From assembly GCA_022703405.1 (NCBI GenBank), contig JAKLDT010000002.1, positions 244 through 64,243 of the forward strand: a stretch of 64,000 nucleotides of DNA. Reading direction: 5' to 3'. How positions within the stretch are numbered: the stretch's first letter is position 1; each line of letters opens with the position of its first letter. The position numbers and the translations under genes were made by a program. The notes under the pieces are model-generated. The model had not been told where the DNA came from, did not search any database, and saw only the letters and a program-made list of their open reading frames with translations. This DNA is from Bacteroidota bacterium. Lineage in GTDB: Bacteria > Bacteroidota > Bacteroidia > Bacteroidales > VadinHA17. Of this stretch, positions 52,457-60,999 are shown one piece after another.

Positions 52457-52813
52457 ATGGCTCATCCCTGGAAAGACCTGGTTGTATGGCAGAAATCTCA
52501 TAAGCTGGTCATAGAAATATATAAAGCAACTGAGATCTTTCCTGATAAAGAAAGATTCGGATTAACCCAACAATTAAGAAGATCAGCAGTTTCTGTTGCT
52601 GCAAACATTGTTGAAGGTAAATCAAGGAAAACCGATAAAGAATTTGCATCTTTTTTATATAACTCAAGGGGATCTCTTGAAGAAACAAGATATCATTTAC
52701 TCTTGTCGAGAGATTTGAATTACATCAATCCTGAAGACTATGAGGCAATTGAAAAGATGGCTGCTGAGGTCAGCTATTTATTGAATAAACTAATTTCGGT
52801 AACTTTGAAATAA
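52457..52813 (+). CDS. Four-helix-bundle protein (23S rRNA intervening-sequence protein / Avd-like family)
   Basis: 118 aa. LVVWQKSHKLVIEIYKAT..FP..ERFGLTQQLRRSAVSVAANIVEG...EF..FL..S.GSL.E..Y.L.L is the family signature. Confidence 0.85.
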   Translation: MAHPWKDLVVWQKSHKLVIEIYKATEIFPDKERFGLTQQLRRSAVSVAANIVEGKSRKTDKEFASFLYNSRGSLEETRYHLLLSRDLNYINPEDYEAIEKMAAEVSYLLNKLISVTLK

Positions 52814-52829
52814 CATCTTTGCCGAATCC

Positions 52830-54185
52830 ATGATTTCCGAAAACACAAATACCTATTACCCTCATGGTGATGCCCCTTTAGCCCCTGCGTCTTCTAACAC
52901 CTCTATAGCCTCTAAAGCCTCTATTGCCTCTAAAGCTCTAATCATAACATACTACTGGCCGCCAAGCGGAGGTGCAGGAGTACAGCGATGGCTTAAATTT
53001 GCAAAATACCTTCCTGAATACGGGTGGGAACCTGTCATTCTCACTGTCGATCCGGCTTATGCCGCATACCCGGCCACTGACAGTTCTCTTGAAAAGGAAA
53101 TACCAGGCTCTCTGAGAGTATTCAGAACAGCAGCTACAGACTGGTTCAGAATATATTCAGCTGACAAATCGAAGGTTCCTTCAGCAGGTTTTTCAAAGGG
53201 AACAGGCAACTCATTCAAATCGAAACTTAGCAGGTTTATCAGGGGTAATTTTTTTATCCCCGATCCAAGAAGGGGCTGGAACAGACACGCATACACAAAA
53301 GCCTGTGAAATAATAGAAAAGGAGAAAATTGTAACATTTGTTACAACCAGTCCTCCTCATTCCACTCAGCTTATAGGTCTTAAACTGAAGAAAAAATTCC
53401 CGGAACTGAAATGGATTGCCGACCTGAGGGACCCATGGACGGATATATATTACTATGATCAGTTTTTCCCTACAATTTTCTCAAAAAAAATTGATAAGCG
53501 CTACGAACAATCTGTGCTGGAAAAGTCTGACAGAATAATTACTGTTGGCAACATGCTTCTTGACCTGTTTGAAAAGAAGGTTCCCGGGCTGAGATCAAAA
53601 AGCACAGTGATAAGCAACGGATTTGATGAACATGATTTTAATGAGCTTTTAAGCAAAATCCCTGAGGTCTTTACAATTACATACGTTGGCACAATTTCTG
53701 AAAAGTATCCTGTTGACGGACTCATCTCAGCTCTTCATAACCTTACAGGAAAAGGAATACAATTCAGGTTAAGGTTCACCGGAACAATACCTGAAAACAT
53801 AAAGCAGAAAATTTCAGCAGCTGTTAATGTGGATTTCATTGAGTTTATACAATATGCACCACACAATGAAGCTGTCAGTTACATGGCTGATTCATCAATC
53901 CTGGTACTTATTATTCCTGATGCCGGTGATAACAGGCTGATTATTACAGGCAAGCTTTTTGAATACGCTGCAACGCGAAAACCAATTTTGTGCATTGGCC
54001 CGGTTGACGGAGAAGCGGCAAAAATAATCTCTGAGCTTCATGCAGGAGAATGTTTCACTTACTCTGACTCTGCCGGAATCGAAAATTTCATATCAGGTCA
54101 TTTTAATAAACCTGAAATGACTCATTCTGATCCCTCAAAATATTCACGCAGAATGCTTACTGAAAAACTGGCTTCCGTCCTTTGA
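52830..54185 (+). CDS. Glycosyltransferase (GT-B fold, GT4-like); the N-terminal ~38 codons are repeat-derived
   Basis: The conserved core starts at LIITYYWPPSGGAGVQRWLKF. There is no in-frame ATG between 52830 and the core. Codons 15-38 are the 9-nt repeat array. Confidence 0.7.
   Translation: MISENTNTYYPHGDAPLAPASSNTSIASKASIASKALIITYYWPPSGGAGVQRWLKFAKYLPEYGWEPVILTVDPAYAAYPATDSSLEKEIPGSLRVFRTAATDWFRIYSADKSKVPSAGFSKGTGNSFKSKLSRFIRGNFFIPDPRRGWNRHAYTKACEIIEKEKIVTFVTTSPPHSTQLIGLKLKKKFPELKWIADLRDPWTDIYYYDQFFPTIFSKKIDKRYEQSVLEKSDRIITVGNMLLDLFEKKVPGLRSKSTVISNGFDEHDFNELLSKIPEVFTITYVGTISEKYPVDGLISALHNLTGKGIQFRLRFTGTIPENIKQKISAAVNVDFIEFIQYAPHNEAVSYMADSSILVLIIPDAGDNRLIITGKLFEYAATRKPILCIGPVDGEAAKIISELHAGECFTYSDSAGIENFISGHFNKPEMTHSDPSKYSRRMLTEKLASVL
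52872..52943 (+). repeat. Right 9-nt-period array (8 units), the inverted partner of 52357..52430, lying inside the annotated 5' end of the glycosyltransferase ORF
   Basis: The units are gccccttta, gcccctgcg, tcttctaac, acctctata, gcctctaaa, gcctctatt, gcctctaaa and gctctaatc. The reverse complement reads (t/a)tagaggc(t/a). Confidence 0.88.
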
Positions 54186-54193
54186 GATCCATT

Positions 54194-54230
54194 CTATTCC
54201 GGGTTAAATGTCTTCATGAAATTTGACACT
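54194..54230 (-). pseudogene. Orphan duplicate of the last 11 codons plus stop of the flippase gene
   Basis: 54194-54229 matches 54526-54561 at 33/36 nt. Both copies translate to VSNFMKTFNPE*, and all three differences are synonymous third positions. Confidence 0.8.
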
Positions 54231-54525
54231 TTCAGCCTGTAACCTCTACGAGGTATCTGGTCGTTTGTACCATTTATCTTCTACAACACCAGAAGCCCTA
54301 CGGGCTATTTAGAATTTGAGAATATCTCTGATAAACAGTTTCCTGCAATAATTAATAATTATTTACCCATTCAATCGCAAACAGCTTATTCAACTTAAAT
54401 GATTTTCTATTCGCCGTAGGCGATATGGTTCTGTAGCTATAGATTATAAATGATCTGTTTTACCGCGTAGCGGTTACGGATTCAGTAATCTTGTAAAATA
54501 ATTCTTCTATGCTGAAAACACAGGA
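54231..54525. repeat. ~295-nt non-coding element with dyad symmetry and four C-GTA-G triloop hairpins (MITE- or REP/BIME-like, or a structured RNA)
   Basis: The hairpins are acctc-tac-gaggt (54242-54254), agccc-tac-gggct (54294-54306), tcgcc-gta-ggcga (54411-54423) and accgc-gta-gcggt (54462-54474). Spacing within each pair is 51-52 nt. The symmetry centre is at about 54358, in an AT-rich core. The termini are ttcagc...gctgaa. Confidence 0.75.
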
Positions 54526-56001
54526 CTATTCCGGATTAAAGGTCTTCATGAAATTTGAAACAGTAAGCTTATTTGCCAGGATAGCTTTTATTTCATAGAA
54601 AGCTGGTAAACGGAACAAAACAGATATTAAAATTACAAGCGAAGGGAATAAAATCACCTGAAGTCCCAGTAGTAATAATGATACTTTCATAATCAATCCA
54701 AGGCTCCAGGTAATAAGAGCCGGAACAAGGGCAACAAGCATCATGGGAAGAAAGTCATAAAGCTGATTCTTAAGTGAATAGCCGACAAGTTTTTTTGAGT
54801 ATGCAGCAATTACAAGATAACCGGCCCAGTAAAAAATTATAATTCCGGCTATCAGTACTTCAATCCCGAGAATTGCTCCTGCAATAAGTAAAGGAGTGAA
54901 TATTCCATACTTAATTATTTCTGTCTTGAGGAAAAGGTCAGGCCTGCCCTTCGCCTTCATTATATTCTGGTTCACAACATGTATAGGAGAAATTGAATAA
55001 GCGAAACAGAGTGCCTGAAACATAATGACAGACGGGAGCCATTTTTCGCCCAGTATTACACCGAACAATGGCTTTGCCATAGCTGCAAGTCCGAACATAA
55101 CTGTAAATGAAATATAAGCCATGCTTACAGTAATCTTACTTGCATGCTGGCGGAGCCTTTCAGTATCATTTTGCAGTTCAGAAAATACAGGATAGCTGAC
55201 CTTGCTTGTTATTGAAGTAAATGTGCTTGAAGGCATAGTACTGTACTGATCAGCATTTGTATAATATCCAAGTATTTTTTCAGAATAGCTTTTTCCTATT
55301 ATAAGGTTTGAGATATTCCTGTATATAGCTGATATTATAGATATTATAAGAATATTCGATCCAAAGCTGAAATGCTCCATGAAGACCTTCCTGTTCCATG
55401 AAAATACAGGTTTCCAGCGATTATTAGCCCAAAGGACTGCTGACCTTACTGCCTGGTTAATTATGCTCCGCCATACAAGACTCCAGACACCGTACCCGTA
55501 ATATGCAAGGGCCAGGGCTGCAATTCCCGACACTACTGTGCCGGCAAGAGAGGACTTTGTTAGGGTCTTGAAATCTACATCCTTTGTCAGAATTGTCTGT
55601 TGAATAAGTGTAAATGATACAATTATTATTGAAAGAGAGGTAATCCTTGTGATTGGAACAAGTTGCTCATTGTCATAAAATGCTGCAATATAGGGTGATG
55701 CAAACCATATAATCAGATAACAGGCAAGCCCGATTACCATGTTAACCCAGAAAACTGTACTGTAATCAGTTGCAGAGCAGTCCTGCTTCCTGATCAGTGA
55801 CTGACTGAGACCGCTGTCGACAAAAACCTGTGAAATTGAAATGAAGATCGTAATCATTCCAAGAAGGCCGAATTCATCAGGAGACAACATTCGTGCAAGG
55901 AAGATCCCGAATATGACTCCCAGGCCCTGGCTCAGGACACTCTCAATGGAGCTCCAGAAAAATCCCCTGATTGTTCTGCGTTTAAGTTCGCTGTCTGCCA
56001 C
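54526..56001 (-). CDS. Polysaccharide biosynthesis protein / Wzx-like MOP-superfamily flippase
   Basis: 491 aa, about 12-14 TM segments. The N-terminus RRTIRGFFWSSIESVLSQGLGVIFGIFLARMLSPDEFGL is typical of Polysacc_synt proteins. Confidence 0.8.
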   Translation of the reverse strand: MADSELKRRTIRGFFWSSIESVLSQGLGVIFGIFLARMLSPDEFGLLGMITIFISISQVFVDSGLSQSLIRKQDCSATDYSTVFWVNMVIGLACYLIIWFASPYIAAFYDNEQLVPITRITSLSIIIVSFTLIQQTILTKDVDFKTLTKSSLAGTVVSGIAALALAYYGYGVWSLVWRSIINQAVRSAVLWANNRWKPVFSWNRKVFMEHFSFGSNILIISIISAIYRNISNLIIGKSYSEKILGYYTNADQYSTMPSSTFTSITSKVSYPVFSELQNDTERLRQHASKITVSMAYISFTVMFGLAAMAKPLFGVILGEKWLPSVIMFQALCFAYSISPIHVVNQNIMKAKGRPDLFLKTEIIKYGIFTPLLIAGAILGIEVLIAGIIIFYWAGYLVIAAYSKKLVGYSLKNQLYDFLPMMLVALVPALITWSLGLIMKVSLLLLGLQVILFPSLVILISVLFRLPAFYEIKAILANKLTVSNFMKTFNPE

Positions 56002-57293: not shown

Positions 57294-58559
57294 ATGAAAT
57301 CATTAAAAAGCCCATCTGAATTATTATTGCTGTTAGTTGCAATAATGTTATTAAGTTCCTGCATAAAGAAGGAAAAACCAGTTGTCAATACAATTATTGT
57401 AACAAACATTACTGGCACCTCTGCTGTTGGAGGTGGTTCAATAACCGATGAGGGTTCAGATCCCATATTATCCAAAGGTGTCTGCTGGAGTAAAAAAGCA
57501 TCACCTACAATCGACAGCACCAAAACCAATGATGGTTCCGGAGCAGAGACTTTTACAAGCAGCCTGACTGGATTATCAGGTGCGACAACCTATTATATAA
57601 GGGCTTATGCCACAAATGCAGCAGGCACTGCTTATGGCTCTGAACTTTCCTTTAAAACACTCGGACAGCTACCTTCAGCCTTACTTCTGCCAGCAACAGA
57701 TATATCCTCAGATGGAGTAAAACTTCATGGTACAGTAAATGCAAATTATCTTTCCACAAATGTATCTTTTGAGTATGGTACAACAGCAAATTATGGCAGC
57801 TCAATAACAGCTGTCCAGAATCCTGTAACTGGGAATAATAATGCAAGTATAGACGTAACTGTCTCAGGATTATCCGGGGGTACTTTATATCATTTTAGAA
57901 TTAAAGCGGAGAACTCATTAGGAATCACATATTCAGACGATCTCACGTTTTTAACACAACTTAAAGATATTGAAGATAATATCTATAAGACTGTAATTAT
58001 CGGAAATCAGACCTGGATGGCAGAAAACCTAAAAACCACAAAATATAATGATGGAAGTTTAATACCGATCTATACTTCAAGTTCTGAGTGGATGAATATT
58101 CAGACTCCCGGATATTGCTGGTATAATAATGACATGTCAGGAAACATAGAAGGTTATGGAACTTTGTATAATTGGTATGCTGTAAATACAGGTAATCTTT
58201 GTCCTACTGGCTTTCATGTGCCAACAAATACTGATTGGAATACACTAATTACATATCTTGGTGGCACAACAGTTGCAGGAGGGAAGCTTAAAGAAACCGG
58301 AATCTCACATTGGATTTCACCTAATTCTGATGCTACAAATGAAAGTGGTTTTTTTGCTATACCGGCAGGTTATAGAAGTTTCAGAGATGGAGCATTCTTT
58401 GGCAAAGGAGAAAATTGTACCTTTTGGAGTTCAACTTCCGATACTTCTGTCGGAGGCGGATCAGTTGCTGTCACCTCATATAATCCAAATGTCATTCTTG
58501 TAGTGACCAATGATAAAAGATATGGTGAATCAGTTCGATGTGTAAAGAATTCCAAATAA
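57294..58559 (+). CDS. Surface lipoprotein with tandem Ig/FN3-like repeats and a C-terminal FISUMP domain
   Basis: The ATG at 57294 gives the lipoprotein signal MKSLKSPSELLLLLVAIMLLSSC. It has repeated ...GTAYGSELSFKT / ...YGTTANYGSSI modules and a C-terminal NIYKTVIIGNQTWMAENL...LYNWYA...CPTGFHVPT...FWSST...VRCVKN. Confidence 0.7.
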   Translation: MKSLKSPSELLLLLVAIMLLSSCIKKEKPVVNTIIVTNITGTSAVGGGSITDEGSDPILSKGVCWSKKASPTIDSTKTNDGSGAETFTSSLTGLSGATTYYIRAYATNAAGTAYGSELSFKTLGQLPSALLLPATDISSDGVKLHGTVNANYLSTNVSFEYGTTANYGSSITAVQNPVTGNNNASIDVTVSGLSGGTLYHFRIKAENSLGITYSDDLTFLTQLKDIEDNIYKTVIIGNQTWMAENLKTTKYNDGSLIPIYTSSSEWMNIQTPGYCWYNNDMSGNIEGYGTLYNWYAVNTGNLCPTGFHVPTNTDWNTLITYLGGTTVAGGKLKETGISHWISPNSDATNESGFFAIPAGYRSFRDGAFFGKGENCTFWSSTSDTSVGGGSVAVTSYNPNVILVVTNDKRYGESVRCVKNSK

Positions 58560-58611
58560 GTATTTACCTGATAATTGCAAACAGAATATTTAGAGTAAAT
58601 AAGAGTATTAG

Positions 58612-58690
58612 AAAAAGGCAACTAACTTTGTGTATTCCTTTAACATGGAGTACTTGCTTAAATTTTAAGAATAGTTATTTGCCTTTTTTT
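58612..58690 (+). terminator. Large hairpin plus T-run downstream of the FISUMP lipoprotein gene
   Basis: aaaaaggcaactaact (58612-58627) and agttatttgccttttt (58673-58688) are complementary at 15/16 positions. The loop is about 45 nt and a T-run follows. The long loop makes this only moderately convincing. Confidence 0.4.
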
Positions 58691-58879
58691 ATTTTAAAAT
58701 TTTTAATAGATAATTCTTTACAAAAACAGACAAAATTCTCATTTAATGGCATTTAGCTTTTATGCATTTTTTTAAATTAATGTGTTTGTCAGAATATTTG
58801 CTATTCATGCCCACTGTAATACAGAAAATGAAACCCGACATTGCTTTTTTTAAAAACCTTTAACAAATTAATAAATTTG

Positions 58880-59836
58880 ATGATCAAGAAAATAGCAACT
58901 GATTATAAATGCAAAATCTGTAATAATGTTAAAGATAATGAACTTGTTACTTTTACCGAACGACATTTTGGTTTTGGTGACAAATTTGAATATGTTGTAT
59001 GTTCCAATTGCAAATGCATTCAAATCAAAACTGTTCCTGAAAATATTGACAAGTATTATCCTAAAGATTATTATTCCTTTGCGGAGCCTCAGTTTCCTAC
59101 CAAACTTAATCCCCTAACCTCCTTTTTAAAGAAAAGTCTTATCAATCATTATCTTGGAAATTTCGATTTATCAGGTTATTTCCTGTCCCTTTTTTTTGAA
59201 CACCCTTTTCCTTGGTTCAGAAAAAAAGAGGTAACTTTTAATTCCAGGATTCTGGATGTCGGAACAGGAACAGGAAGGAAACTTTTATCTCTACGGCGCA
59301 GCGGATTCAAACAACTAACAGGTATTGACCCATATATATCGAAAGATATTAATTATAACAATTTAATGGTTTACAAGAAAAATCTGTCAGAGATTAAAGG
59401 AACCTACGATTGCATTACTCTTCACCATTCATTTGAACACATGCCTGATCCTGAATCGGTATTAGGTGCTCTTGAAAAATTACTTGACCCAAATGGTGTA
59501 ATTATAATCAGAATTCCTGTTGCTGATTGCTATGCATGGTACAAATATGGAGAATTTTGGGTGCAACTTGATGCTCCACGGCATTTTTTCATTCACACTC
59601 AAAAAAGCATTGAAATTCTGCTTCAGAAAACCAATATGTACCTTGATGAAATAGTTTATGATTCAAATGCACATCAATTTATTATGAGTGAAAAATATCT
59701 TCGTGGTCAAACTCTTTTCATGCAAGATAATCACTTTACTAAAAAAGAGATCCATCTATTTGAAAGCCAGGCAATTGAATTGAATGAAGAAAAAAAGGGT
59801 GATTCTGCTTGTTTTTATATTAGAAAGAAAAAATAA
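58880..59836 (+). CDS. Class I SAM-dependent methyltransferase with N-terminal Cys4 zinc-ribbon
   Basis: The ATG at 58880 gives MIKKIATDYKCKICNN...CSNCKC. SAM motif I is ILDVGTGTGRKL. Confidence 0.75.
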   Translation: MIKKIATDYKCKICNNVKDNELVTFTERHFGFGDKFEYVVCSNCKCIQIKTVPENIDKYYPKDYYSFAEPQFPTKLNPLTSFLKKSLINHYLGNFDLSGYFLSLFFEHPFPWFRKKEVTFNSRILDVGTGTGRKLLSLRRSGFKQLTGIDPYISKDINYNNLMVYKKNLSEIKGTYDCITLHHSFEHMPDPESVLGALEKLLDPNGVIIIRIPVADCYAWYKYGEFWVQLDAPRHFFIHTQKSIEILLQKTNMYLDEIVYDSNAHQFIMSEKYLRGQTLFMQDNHFTKKEIHLFESQAIELNEEKKGDSACFYIRKKK

Positions 59837-59844
59837 AAAGTTAT

Positions 59845-60999
59845 TTGCGAATGACTCCAAAGGTTCTGATTTTGTCATTCTGGAATCCGGTCAAAGACAA
59901 TCCCCAACAGGGTATCTTTATCCAGGACCAGGCTGCTGCTGTTTGCAGTTACAGAAAGGATATTCTGTTTGTCAGGGTGAATGTACTGCCCTCCGGATCA
60001 CTCTTTATAAAAAAGGAGATCACTGAATCAGACTTCTTTGGAAATAAGAGTATTACAATAAATATTTCTTCCCTCCTCTGGAAATTTTTGTTTGTGAATC
60101 CATGGTTTCTTGCCCGTACTGTCTTAAAAATACTTACAACAGCATTTCCCGGAATAAAACCGGAAATAATTCACTCGAATGTTATATTTCCATGCGGACT
60201 GGTTGGCTATCTTCTTTCAAAGAAGACAGGGTCACGACTGATTATTTCAGAGCACTGGTCAAAAGCGGTTAAATTTCTTCGGAACCCTGTCCTTGGGAAC
60301 TTCGCATTAAAAGTTTATAACAGGAATGAACAACTGATATGTGTTTCAGGTTTTCTTGCTGAAAAACTCCGTACAGCAACCGGTCATAAAAATGTTATTG
60401 TTATTCCGAACATTGTCGATACAGAGATATTTTCATTCAGCCCGAAAACAAAAAGAGGAAAATATGATTTTACCTGCATTGCATCGTGGAAAGCACCAAA
60501 ACGCCTCGATCTGATAATTGAAGGCCTGTCAGCCTGTGCTGCTGATTCAGAGTTGTTTTTTACTCTGAATGTAATTGGCAATGGTCCCCAGACTGATACA
60601 TTCAAAGCCTGTAAGACTCCGGGCAATCTGACAATTAACTGGCTTGGCTACCTTGATAAGAAAGATATTGCCGGGATACTACATAGAACTGATTTTTTCC
60701 TGCATGCCTCTGACACCGAGACCTTTTCAATAGTAACGGCAGAAGCTCTGTCAACGGGTACGCCGGCTATTGTTTCTGCCACTGGCGCTCTGCCTGAACT
60801 TGTACATAATAAGAACGGGATCCTTGCTGAAAACTCTGTCTCCTCCTGGAGTGAAAAGATCTGTGAAATAATTAACAGAAGCTTTGATAATGAAGTAATT
60901 GCGAGGGAGAACAGGGAAAGGTTTTCAGCATCAGCTGCAGGCAGTTCAATTAATGAAGCCTATAATAAAGTTCTGGCTGATATAGCTAAATCCCGATGA
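59845..60999 (+). CDS. Family 4 (GT-B) glycosyltransferase
   Basis: 384 aa. The C-terminal Glycos_transf_1 signature is FFLHASDTETFSIVTAEALSTGTPAIVSATGALPELV. Confidence 0.8.
   Translation: MRMTPKVLILSFWNPVKDNPQQGIFIQDQAAAVCSYRKDILFVRVNVLPSGSLFIKKEITESDFFGNKSITINISSLLWKFLFVNPWFLARTVLKILTTAFPGIKPEIIHSNVIFPCGLVGYLLSKKTGSRLIISEHWSKAVKFLRNPVLGNFALKVYNRNEQLICVSGFLAEKLRTATGHKNVIVIPNIVDTEIFSFSPKTKRGKYDFTCIASWKAPKRLDLIIEGLSACAADSELFFTLNVIGNGPQTDTFKACKTPGNLTINWLGYLDKKDIAGILHRTDFFLHASDTETFSIVTAEALSTGTPAIVSATGALPELVHNKNGILAENSVSSWSEKICEIINRSFDNEVIARENRERFSASAAGSSINEAYNKVLADIAKSR

What the first reader, a model, noticed from the sequence alone, without database searches (positions are those of the whole stretch)
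54231..54525. ~295-nt dyad-symmetric non-coding element with four covarying C-GTA-G triloop hairpins between convergent glycan genes
Four 5-bp hairpins share the loop and closing pair c-GTA-g, but their stem sequences differ:
- acctc/gaggt at 54242-54254, in one orientation
- agccc/gggct at 54294-54306, in the same orientation
- tcgcc/ggcga at 54411-54423, in the opposite orientation
- accgc/gcggt at 54462-54474, in the opposite orientation

Spacing within each pair is 51-52 nt. Both pairs are symmetric about an AT-rich centre near 54358.

The two halves align when one is reverse-complemented. Each reads hairpin, T(c/a)TGGT..TGTAG, ATAAATG, hairpin, TTAC(A)GG, and the termini read ttcagc...gctgaa.

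Compensatory stem changes with a fixed loop argue for selection on structure. There are three possibilities:
(a) a MITE with long imperfect terminal inverted repeats
(b) a REP/BIME-like cluster, since enterobacterial REPs also combine a conserved GTAG with a hairpin, occur in inverted pairs at gene 3' ends, and are bound by Y1 transposase-like RAYTs
(c) a structured RNA or bidirectional terminator specific to the glycan locus

No ORF of 60 aa or more lies inside the element.
Basis: partly seen in the sequence, partly recalled or inferred. Interest (0 to 1): 0.62.

Follow-up and report, generated by a model that had tools for sequence, protein, structure and literature searches.

The report
REP-like hairpin repeat module insertion
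The element is a strain-variable, roughly 330-base insertion made of four copies of a small hairpin repeat, and the same repeat fills intergenic DNA in many Bacteroidales and other sludge bacteria, where it flanks a small IS200-like DNA-cutting enzyme gene that a 2018 survey listed as having no such repeats.

Summary
Four perfect 5-bp hairpins with a c-GTA-g triloop lie at the stated coordinates. Only one other such hairpin (AAAAA/TTTTT) occurs in the 64 kb.

The element is an insertion. Five related Bacteroidales genomes keep the same gene order with only 13-26 nt between the two stop codons, and one metagenome contig from a ~95%-identical strain joins 54188 to 54520.

It is not specific to the glycan locus. 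The same units occur in at least 120 loci of Bacteroidales, KSB3 and Neomarinimicrobiota genomes, singly and in arrays:
- B unit: T-stem-GTA-stem-T..GGTATTGTAGAA
- A unit: TACCGCGTAGCGGTT or TACCTCGTAGAGGTT

The stems covary across the family (96.7% paired against 63.6% in shuffles).

The gene found most often beside the repeats is a 157-aa Y1 HUH protein (Pfam Y1_Tnp). It is flanked as B> A> gene <A <B, using the same stem sequences as the window. Its motifs fit "subclass 1.2" of Quentin et al. 2018, which that survey listed without REPs.

Verdict: a REP/BIME-like (REPIN-like) non-autonomous module, and a new variant of a known kind. The terminator, RNA-family and locus-specific readings are not supported.

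One feature remains unexplained: family members are often flanked by long direct repeats of host sequence, 36 nt here, that differ only at synonymous sites.

The parts
52830..54185 (+). Left flanking gene: a glycosyltransferase-like protein (451-aa ORF; the true start is probably further downstream).
   Evidence: Weak Pfam matches to Glycos_transf_1 and Glyco_transf_4, below the curated cut-offs. Orthologues lie in L005-L011 and others at 44-68% identity, aligned from residue 41.
54194..54229 (-). DR1: a pseudo-copy of the last 11 codons plus stop of the flippase gene (...VSNFMKTFNPE*). It lies 8 nt from the glycosyltransferase stop codon.
   Evidence: Direct-repeat family D1. It matches the flippase 3' ends of relatives L005, L006, L007, L021 and L025. 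It matches DR2 at 33 of 36 positions, and all three differences are synonymous.
54189..54519 (.). The stretch missing in the empty-site allele of a related strain (331 nt), which equals the REP-like module plus one repeat copy.
   Evidence: A contig in run X17 joins 54188 to 54520. Relatives have only 13-26 nt between the two stop codons.
54242..54254 (-). A-type hairpin unit (stem ACCTC/GAGGT; the loop reads GTA on the minus strand), followed on that strand by TTAC.
   Evidence: The same stem lies directly 3' of the Y1 gene in L033, L036, L040, L050, L105, L120 and L132. Family consensus TACCTCGTAGAGGTTAAAC.
54281..54306 (-). B-type unit: hairpin AGCCC/GGGCT (54294-54306) plus the tail CTACAACACC (54281-54290), which reads GGTGTTGTAG on the minus strand.
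   Evidence: Family consensus TaGCCCGTAGGGCtT.aGGTATTGTAgaa. This is the outer unit 3' of the Y1 gene in at least 11 loci.
54307..54410 (.). AT-rich spacer between the two tail-to-tail B units.
   Evidence: Spacer length varies between homologous modules, with the commonest B-to-B distance being 71 nt. The alignment to homologues runs across it at only 60-66% identity.
54411..54436 (+). B-type unit: hairpin TCGCC/GGCGA (54411-54423) plus the tail GGTTCTGTAG (54427-54436).
   Evidence: Consensus TTCGCCGTAGGCGATa.GGTattGtAgaa. This is the outer unit 5' of the Y1 gene. Extra metagenome contigs match only 54401-54436 and carry other flanks.
54462..54474 (+). A-type hairpin unit (stem ACCGC/GCGGT, loop GTA), followed by TTAC.
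   Evidence: Consensus TACCGCGTAGCGGTT. This is the inner unit 5' of the Y1 gene in L040, L059, L064 and L105. The core TACCGCGTAGCGGTT is identical in KSB3 bacterium UASB14.
54475..54525 (.). About 50 nt between the last hairpin and the live flippase stop codon. It is not conserved in homologous modules and may include a decayed B tail (TTCTTCTA, 54502-54509).
   Evidence: Repeat D2. Homologue alignments end at about 54476-54488.
54526..54561 (-). DR2: the live 3' end and stop codon of the flippase gene.
   Evidence: It is continuous with the relatives' sequence (AACAGTAAGCTTAT...), whereas DR1 diverges after about 54229.
54526..56001 (-). Right flanking gene: a Wzx-like polysaccharide flippase (491 aa).
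   Evidence: Pfam Polysacc_synt_3, E = 9e-96. Orthologues at 55-77% identity in 21 genomes.

Best explanation
The element is a non-autonomous REP/BIME-like module, equivalent to a REPIN. It has four short hairpin units arranged as two inverted doublets: <A <B, spacer, B> A>. The units belong to a repeat family that has spread through intergenic DNA of Bacteroidales and also occurs in KSB3 and Neomarinimicrobiota.

The family's partner protein is a ~157-aa IS200-like Y1 HUH endonuclease. Its gene is flanked by the same doublets in the order B> A> gene <A <B.

Shown here:
- the family exists, is extragenic and forms arrays
- the stems covary while the GTA loop and the GGTATTGTAG tail stay fixed
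- the Y1 gene is physically associated with the units in a conserved arrangement
- the window copy is a strain-variable insertion

Inferred, by analogy with IS608/ISDra2 TnpA and E. coli TnpA-REP: the hairpins form on single-stranded DNA, for instance the lagging-strand template. The Y1 dimer would bind them, use the fixed loop and GTAG-containing tail to place its cut, and mobilise doublets in trans.

In this window the module is most likely a neutral passenger between two convergent genes. The flippase reading frame stays whole because its last 36 nt are present on both sides of the insertion.
For: Rarity in the window: the four hairpins are unique within 64 kb.

Insertion:
- Five syntenic relatives have 13-26 nt between the two stop codons.
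- A related strain has an empty allele joining 54188 to 54520.

Family:
Nearly all are Bacteroidales, Bacteroidota, KSB3 or Neomarinimicrobiota.
- There are 587 c-GTA-g hairpins in 915 kb, against 79 for the next most common loop. The four window stems are the four commonest: CGCC 156, GCCC 148, CCGC 133, CCTC 73.
- 94% of hairpins lie outside long ORFs.
- Neighbours in the same orientation are 50-53 nt apart, as in the window.
- Whole-module homologues occur in L059, L084, L094, L103 and L145.
- Arrays occur with periods of 28, 52 and 151 nt.

Structure:
- Of units picked by their tail alone, 231 of 268 have GTA at the fixed offset. Five pairs are 88-93% Watson-Crick, and the sixth position is T.T in 236 of 268.
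- On alignment A3, 96.7% of cells are paired against 63.6% in shuffles, and the covariation score is 0.662 against 0.165 (0 of 500 shuffles reach it). Slid registers score 0.05 or less.

Protein:
- The most recurrent ORF near the repeats (20 of 121 loci) matches Pfam Y1_Tnp at E = 6.6e-22.
- Conserved HxH, WQ and Y...Q..HH motifs are present.
- The flanking order B> A> gene <A <B holds in at least 11 loci.
- The same system occurs in UASB14 with a Y1 protein 55-64% identical.
- A Bernardetia homologue at 42% identity has the same 2+2 inverted architecture and the TTGTAGAA tail.
Against: - No Y1 gene and no second copy lie in this 64-kb window, and the window's own genome is not in the genome collection. 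Copy number and a resident enzyme are therefore unproven for this organism. The extra B-unit contigs in the same metagenomes could come from other species.
- No biochemical data exist for this Y1 subclass.
- On any one strand the two ends of the gene-carrying unit show different loops (GTA at one end, TAC at the other). The IS608 single-strand excision scheme cannot be copied directly.
- The window module has the unit order of a right-end/left-end junction, not of an internally deleted gene unit.
- The long flanking direct repeats are not predicted by any known Y1 mechanism.
Confidence: 0.8

Rival explanations
1. The element is a classical MITE: a cut-down DNA transposon moved by a DDE transposase that recognises the ~80-nt inverted arms. 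The hairpins would be incidental.
For: - The arms are inverted (53 of 86 columns).
- Flanking direct repeats are present.
- The element is present or absent between strains.
- Some Y1-carrying relatives are bounded by a separate 15-nt terminal inverted repeat, TCCTGACTTCTGACG, and by direct repeats, as a DDE-type element would be.
Against: - No DDE transposase recurs near the units. The recurrent gene is the Y1 protein.
- The units occur singly, in head-to-head and tail-to-tail pairs, and in tandem arrays with periods of 28, 52 and 151 nt. This is unlike a fixed-ended MITE.
- The stems covary while the loop stays fixed. This points to hairpin recognition rather than recognition of duplex ends.
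- The direct repeats are long, of variable length and imperfect, not a fixed short duplication.
- The window copy lacks the TCCTGACTTCTGACG ends.
Confidence: 0.08
2. The element is a structured RNA or bidirectional terminator/3'-UTR stabiliser serving the two convergent glycan genes.
For: - It sits between convergent genes.
- The region folds better than shuffles (z = -3.0 and -3.7).
- Contigs from runs labelled as RNA cover it at a depth like that of its flanks.
- E. coli REPs are known to stabilise upstream mRNA (my own knowledge).
Against: - No Rfam match even at E = 1.
- No terminator-like site: the stems are 5 bp with no T run.
- Close relatives and a sister strain do without it.
- Family modules lie in tandem (64), convergent (20) and divergent (18) intergenic contexts, so they are not tied to 3' ends.
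- The RNA evidence has no strand information, and DNA carry-over is possible.
Confidence: 0.05
3. The element is a recombination scar. The glycan locus was swapped by homologous or illegitimate recombination, leaving the old flippase 3' end (DR1) and foreign intergenic DNA that happened to carry REP-like units. On this view the module never transposed here.
For: - DR1 and DR2 differ only at synonymous sites (3 of 3), like two alleles.
- The spacer beside DR1 (CCATT) differs from the one beside DR2 and in the empty allele (ACAGGA).
- A second lineage-variable insertion (the IVP gene) lies 1.4 kb away.
- GC content falls further into the locus.
Against: - This explains how the module arrived but not what it is. 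The module is still a member of the Y1-associated family.
- Long host-derived direct repeats flank other family members at unrelated loci about ten times more often than shifted controls. That points to something tied to the element rather than to this locus.
Confidence: 0.05

Closest known systems
REP/BIME elements and REPINs with their RAYT (TnpA-REP) genes in Enterobacteria, Pseudomonas and Stenotrophomonas (Nunvar 2010, PMC2817692; Bertels & Rainey 2011, PMC3116915; Di Nocera 2013, PMC3733652)
   Same: - Short GC-rich extragenic palindromes at high copy number.
- A conserved GTAG.
- Inverted pairs and mosaic arrays.
- More than one unit subtype per system.
- A small Y1 HUH gene flanked by inverted units.
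- Presence or absence polymorphism between strains.
   Different: - The stem is only 5 bp, with a fixed GTA triloop.
- GTAG lies in the loop (c-GTA-g) and again in a 3' tail (GGTATTGTAG), not 0-2 nt 5' of the stem.
- The basic unit is a B+A doublet with 50-53 nt spacing.
- The protein has class-1 motifs (Y...Q..HH), not the class-2 Y...NP motif.
- The E. coli TnpA-REP structure 4ER8 was not among the profile hits at E <= 0.001.
- The Y1 gene can be present in 2-3 copies per genome.
- The family spans several phyla.
IS200/IS605 family TnpA transposases (IS608, ISDra2; PDB 2A6M, 2VJV, 2XM3)
   Same: - These are the closest solved relatives of the associated protein (E = 3e-8).
- Public records name homologues 'IS200/IS605 family transposase'.
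- Small subterminal hairpins are the likely recognition elements.
   Different: - In IS200/IS605 both end hairpins lie on the same strand. Here the two ends are inverted.
- The hairpin units have spread independently of the gene into hundreds of gene-less copies and arrays.
- No tnpB gene is present.
TnpA-Y1 'subclass 1.2' of Quentin et al. 2018 (PMC6006769)
   Same: - Motifs match: DH[IV]H, WQ and Y...Q..HH.
- Length is ~150 aa with a conserved C-terminal tail.
- Copy number is low.
- The taxonomic home is Bacteroidetes.
   Different: [quoted passage not shown] Here the genes are flanked by conserved hairpin doublets that are also dispersed through the genome. Their REP search required a 5' GT[AG]G and stems of at least 7 nt, so it would have missed these units.

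Membership tests
REP/BIME-RAYT system (REPtron) | Short palindromic units, extragenic and at high copy number in the genome | tested here: inconclusive
   Met for the family: at least 120 loci, about 38 8-kb tiles in UASB14 alone, and 94% outside long ORFs. Not testable for the window's own genome, which is absent from the collection. There is only one module in 64 kb. Other copies exist in the same metagenomes.
REP/BIME-RAYT system (REPtron) | A Y1 HUH gene flanked by units in inverted orientation | tested here: met
   The order B> A> gene <A <B holds in at least 11 of 20 Y1 loci. It is also seen in UASB14 and Bernardetia.
REP/BIME-RAYT system (REPtron) | A conserved GT[AG]G tetranucleotide 0-2 nt 5' of the hairpin foot | tested here: not met
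   The 5' foot is a conserved T (T.T mismatch in 236 of 268 units). GTAG occurs in the loop plus closing base, and again 10-13 nt 3' of the stem.
REP/BIME-RAYT system (REPtron) | The protein belongs to class 2 TnpA-REP (Y...NP motif, related to E. coli YafM) | tested here: not met
   The motif is Y-I-x-N-Q-x-x-H-H. PDB profile hits are IS608 and ISDra2 TnpA only. NCBIfam assigns transpos_IS200.
REP/BIME-RAYT system (REPtron) | Units clustered in mosaic arrays with alternating orientation | tested here: met
   The window module is <A<B...B>A>. There are 16 tail-to-tail and 37 head-to-head four-unit groups, and arrays in L033, L049, L094 and L145.
IS200/IS605 insertion sequence (or a PATE-type derivative) | Left- and right-end subterminal hairpins on the same (top) strand; no inverted repeats and no target duplication | tested here: not met
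   The ends are inverted, with GTA loops on opposite strands at the two ends. Direct repeats flank many copies.
IS200/IS605 insertion sequence (or a PATE-type derivative) | A Y1 transposase with HUH and catalytic Tyr | tested here: met
   Pfam PF01797 at E = 6.6e-22. H56, H58 and Y116 are invariant. This applies to related loci only; there is no such gene in the window.
MITE | Terminal inverted repeats, a short fixed-length target duplication, and derivation from an autonomous element by internal deletion | tested here: not met
   Inverted arms are present. But the flanking repeat is 36 nt and imperfect. The unit order is also permuted relative to the gene-carrying unit.
Intrinsic (bidirectional) terminator | A GC-rich stem followed by a T/U run on the transcribed strand | tested here: not met
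   No terminator-like sites in 53900-54900.
Any Rfam RNA family | A covariance-model match | tested here: not met
   No match at gathering thresholds in the window, and none at E <= 1 in 54100-54650.
CRISPR array (considered for the periodic arrays in relatives) | Conserved repeats separated by unique spacers | tested here: not met
   In L049, L032 and L033 the whole period is conserved, including the 'spacer'.

The most novel reading that the evidence does not exclude
Subclass-1.2 IS200-like Y1 proteins, so far regarded as orphan enzymes with neither IS ends nor REPs, may be the enzymes of a previously undescribed REPtron-like system. Its substrates would be c-GTA-g triloop hairpin doublets with a GGTATTGTAG tail. 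The system has spread across at least three phyla living in the same sludge and sediment habitats. Its insertions would arise by a route that leaves long direct repeats of host gene ends that look like two alleles. Two candidate routes are integration of a circle carrying a piece of a donor's flanking gene, or template switching at a stalled fork.
Probability: 0.4. Interest if true: 0.7.

Novelty: new variant of a known kind. Interest (0 to 1): 0.55.

Why it matters
REP elements and their Y1 partner enzymes have been worked out almost entirely in Proteobacteria. How these enzymes copy REPs is still unresolved.

This family offers three things:
- a very compact and sharply defined substrate: a 5-bp stem, a fixed triloop and a fixed tail
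- a partner enzyme from the IS200-like branch rather than the RAYT branch, which would bridge true insertion sequences and domesticated REP systems
- cultured carriers in which to test it (Prolixibacter denitrificans DSM 27267 and Pontibacter ramchanderi LP43 carry the B unit)

It also matters for annotating Bacteroidales genomes assembled from metagenomes. These units break assemblies, mimic periodic arrays, and mark strain-variable sites next to surface-glycan genes.

For this particular locus the practical message is modest. The element is a passenger insertion, not a regulator of the glycan genes.

Tried and rejected
1. A strict two-hairpin arm pattern found nothing in the genome collection. 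This showed that the window's own genome is not held there.
2. A looser pattern gave one real hit (L026) and one chance hit inside a GC-rich coding region (L027), which I discarded.
3. Rfam at gathering and at E <= 1 gave nothing. The terminator scan gave nothing.
4. RNA-labelled runs have contigs covering the element, but without strand or end information. This is inconclusive for transcription or termination.
5. The idea that the periodic arrays are CRISPR was rejected, because the spacers are conserved.
6. I considered that the flanking repeat is a target-site duplication that then decayed neutrally. This does not fit: all 8 differences in coding parts of the window and L152 repeats are synonymous third-position changes, and the spacer beside DR1 differs from that of the empty allele.
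7. The long repeats in L109 and L080 turned out to be tandem paralogous small ORFs, not duplications made by insertion.
8. The flank-repeat test had three artefact rows from modules at locus edges. I removed them before quoting the result.
9. Plasmid and phage collections hold no close homologue of the Y1 protein (best 42% identity), so no vector for cross-phylum spread was identified.
10. Literature searches by term and by literal sequence found no description of this repeat. The library lacks most subscription journals.
Full report
**1. The observation**

The region reads as described. Four perfect 5-bp hairpins lie at 54242-54254, 54294-54306, 54411-54423 and 54462-54474. Each has a three-base loop closed by C-G. 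The loop reads TAC on the plus strand for the left two hairpins and GTA for the right two. Spacing is 52 and 51 nt.

A scan of the whole window for perfect 5-bp stems around GTA or TAC finds these four and one trivial AAAAA/TTTTT case. A B-unit pattern with up to 3 mismatches hits only the two inner units, against 0.03 expected by chance. The arms align at 53 of 86 columns when one is reverse-complemented. No ORF of 60 aa or more lies inside.

A direct repeat flanks the element (54194-54229 and 54526-54561, 33 of 36 identical).

**2. Surroundings, and proof of insertion**

To the left is a glycosyltransferase-like gene (52830-54185, plus strand). To the right is a Wzx-like flippase (54526-56001, minus strand; Polysacc_synt_3, E = 9e-96).

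The right repeat copy is the live 3' end of the flippase. The left copy encodes the same last 11 residues and stop codon, and sits 8 nt from the glycosyltransferase stop.

The organism is an uncultured Bacteroidales bacterium from activated sludge and digesters. Four ENA contigs carry an identical element.

Five related genomes (flippase 70-77% identical) keep the order GT2, flippase, convergent glycosyltransferase, ProRS. They have only 13-26 nt between the two stop codons. In run X17 a contig from a ~95%-identical strain joins 54188 directly to 54520, skipping 331 nt. The element plus one repeat copy is therefore a strain-variable insertion.

**3. It belongs to a large repeat family**

A pattern drawn from the arm hit a cluster of about ten homologous units in KSB3 bacterium UASB14.

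My estimate for chance hits is about 35. Nearly all loci come from Bacteroidales or Bacteroidota, KSB3 (UASB14, UASB270, Vecturithrix, Moduliflexus) or Neomarinimicrobiota. They include the MAG closest to the window.

In 915 kb of these loci there are 587 c-GTA-g hairpins, against 79 for the next most frequent loop. The commonest stems are exactly the four in the window: CGCC 156, GCCC 148, CCGC 133 and CCTC 73.

Two unit types emerge:
- B: T-stem-GTA-stem-T..GGTATTGTAGAA
- A: TACCGCGTAGCGGTT, or TACCTCGTAGAGGTTAAAC

Other properties of the family:
- Neighbours in the same orientation are 50-53 nt apart, as in the window.
- 94% of hairpins lie outside long ORFs.
- Modules sit in tandem (64), convergent (20) and divergent (18) intergenic contexts.
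- Units form arrays with periods of 28, 52 and 151 nt.
- The whole four-hairpin module of the window aligns end to end with modules in L059, L084, L094, L103 and L145.
- In the metagenomes that hold the window, further contigs match only the B unit at 54401-54436 and carry other flanks.

**4. Selection on structure**

To avoid choosing units by their stems, I picked them by the tail alone (GGTRTTGTA).
- 231 of 268 have GTA at the fixed offset.
- The five stem pairs are Watson-Crick in 88-93% of units, with balanced swaps: CG 139 to GC 94, CG 118 to GC 118, and TA 128 to AT 112.
- The sixth position is a conserved T.T mismatch in 236 of 268.

On a 91-sequence alignment (obvious non-family tail hits left out):
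- 96.7% of cells pair, against 63.6% in shuffles.
- 131 cells carry double changes, against 56.5.
- The covariation score is 0.662 against 0.165 (0 of 500 shuffles reach it).
- Sliding the partner by 1-3 columns drops the score to 0.05 or less.

Each hairpin also folds as DNA on its own. From my own knowledge, c-GNA-g triloops are unusually stable DNA mini-hairpins. This fits a single-stranded DNA role but was not tested here.

**5. The partner gene**

I clustered all ORFs of 90 aa or more in the 121 repeat-ascertained loci. The most recurrent family, present in 20 loci, is a ~157-aa protein.

It matches Pfam Y1_Tnp at E = 6.6e-22 and NCBIfam transpos_IS200, just above the cut-off. Eighteen copies align with an invariant HxH, WQ and Y-I-x-N-Q-x-x-H-H.

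The gene is flanked in a fixed way. B lies at about -130, A at about -80, an inverted A at +1 to +13, and an inverted B at +51 to +65. This holds in at least 11 loci. In L036 three of the four stem sequences match the window exactly, and the fourth unit (AL) differs only by a loop change. Several other loci carry CCTC where the window has CCGC in the inner upstream unit.

UASB14 has a homologue at 55-64% identity buried in more than 1 kb of units on each side. A Bernardetia homologue at 42% identity has two plus two inverted units with a different hairpin but the same CGTAG core and TTGTAGAA tail.

The closest solved structures are the ISDra2 and IS608 TnpA proteins (E = 3e-8). E. coli TnpA-REP was not recovered.

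The motifs, size and taxonomy fit 'subclass 1.2' of Quentin et al. 2018. [quoted passage not shown] Their REP search required a 5' GT[AG]G and stems of at least 7 nt, so it would have missed these units. Searches of the held literature by term and by literal sequence found no description of this repeat.

**6. How the window copy relates to the gene-carrying unit**

The gene unit reads B> A> gene <A <B. The window reads <A <B, spacer, B> A>. This is the order found just downstream of many Y1 genes, where the next doublet follows (L033, L059, L076, L119, L144, L145).

It is also the order expected at a right-end/left-end junction. So the window copy is not a simple internal-deletion derivative. 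Both tail-to-tail (16) and head-to-head (37) four-unit groups exist, as in BIMEs.

**7. Most likely mechanism**

Shown:
- a dispersed extragenic hairpin family under structural selection
- physical linkage of the family to a Y1 HUH gene
- insertion polymorphism at this site

Inferred, by analogy with IS608/ISDra2 TnpA and E. coli TnpA-REP: the Y1 dimer binds the hairpins on single-stranded DNA. It would use the invariant loop and GTAG tail to set its cleavage site and mobilise doublets in trans.

One difference from IS200/IS605 was tested. The two ends are inverted, so a single strand does not present the same hairpin at both ends. This is the REP/RAYT arrangement, not the IS608 one.

**8. The unexplained part**

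Host-derived direct repeats flank many family members:

| Locus | Repeat length | Identity |
|---|---|---|
| Window | 36 nt | 33 of 36 |
| L152 | 164 nt | 95% |
| L050 | 97 nt | 100% |
| L040 | 108 nt | 88% |
| L036 | ~60 nt | ~84% |
| L132 | ~70 nt | ~80% |
| L120 | 25 nt | 92% |
| L075 | 28 nt | 93% |
| L063 | 37 nt | 100% |

After removing three edge artefacts, about 10% of modules have such repeats, against 1% of shifted controls.

In two cases the repeat overlaps a real gene 3' end. There, every difference in the coding part is a synonymous third-position change: 3 of 3 in the window and 5 of 5 in L152. The spacer beside DR1 (CCATT) also differs from the one in the empty allele and beside DR2 (ACAGGA).

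A plain target duplication followed by neutral decay does not fit. The two copies look like two alleles of the gene end. Two explanations are possible:
- the element arrived together with a piece of a donor's flanking gene and integrated by recombination
- the live gene was later replaced by a diverged allele

I could not decide between them.

Some Y1-carrying copies are also bounded by a 15-nt inverted repeat, TCCTGACTTCTGACG. These copies are multi-copy in one MAG, where contigs break at the repeat. The window copy lacks these ends.

**9. Rivals**

- A DDE-type MITE is unlikely. No such transposase recurs near the units, the units occur in many arrangements, and the stems covary.
- An RNA element or terminator is unlikely. 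There is no Rfam match and no terminator-like site, relatives and a sister strain lack the element, and the family shows no bias towards 3' ends. Contigs from RNA-labelled runs cover it, but without strand information.
- A pure recombination scar would explain how the module arrived, not what it is.

**10. Verdict**

The finding is real. It is a REP/BIME-like (REPIN-like) module of a family tied to an IS200-like Y1 protein, which makes it a new variant of a known kind.

It fails two defining features of canonical REP/RAYT systems: the position of GTAG and the class of the protein. It also fails the same-strand-ends rule of IS200/IS605. I therefore file it as 'works like a REPtron', not as a member of either family.

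At this locus it is a passenger. As a family, it gives a concrete substrate for an uncharacterised enzyme subclass.

Noticed in passing
window 52457-52813 (+): A 118-aa 23S_rRNA_IVP / bAvd-like four-helix-bundle gene sits between ProRS and the glycosyltransferase. It is absent from that position in the five closest relatives and present in L011. This is a second lineage-variable insertion within 2 kb of the element.
   Followed up: partly
window 52830-54185 (+): Relatives align to the glycosyltransferase only from residue 41, and one metagenome assembly calls a 419-aa product. The true start codon is probably downstream of 52830.
   Followed up: no
L050 1910-3158; L040 2918-4256; L120 1114-2224; L152 3837-5590; L075 1988-2744: A ~1.1-1.4 kb element carries the Y1 gene and its hairpin doublets. 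It is bounded by the inverted repeat TCCTGACTTCTGACG and by host direct repeats of 25-164 nt. Contigs of MAG GL140_3 break at it (L147-L150, L153), so it is multi-copy there.
   Followed up: partly
L032 1642-1777; L049 5400-5980; L033 5500-7200: Tandem arrays of the hairpin units have periods of 28, 52 and 151 nt. They could be mistaken for CRISPR arrays, but the inter-unit sequence is conserved too.
   Followed up: yes
L111 7667-8000 joined to L026 1-180 (UASB14 scaffold_5, about 119,667-120,170): The KSB3 bacterium UASB14 has a Y1 gene 55-64% identical to the Bacteroidales ones. It is embedded in more than 1 kb of near-identical A and B units on both sides, so the system crosses phyla that share the same reactor habitats.
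   Followed up: partly
L154 1380-1470 and 1990-2065 (Bernardetia sp. plasmid NZ_CP147018.1): A tnpA gene annotated 'IS200/IS605 family transposase' (42% identical) is flanked by 2+2 inverted units AAGCTGCGTAGCTGCGTAATATTTGTAGAA. The architecture and TTGTAGAA tail are the same but the hairpin differs.
   Followed up: partly
L109 903-1749; L080 1099-1845: A gene-less head-to-head module (B> A> <A <B) lies between two tandem paralogous small ORFs of about 100-112 aa. The differences between the paralogues are mostly synonymous.
   Followed up: partly
L051 and L082 (UASB14): A separate 29-45-nt dispersed repeat family, unrelated to the GTA hairpins, occurs many times per 8 kb.
   Followed up: no
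window 58001-60000: GC content falls to 0.335 against about 0.42 elsewhere. This suggests that the distal part of the glycan locus is foreign or fast-evolving.
   Followed up: no
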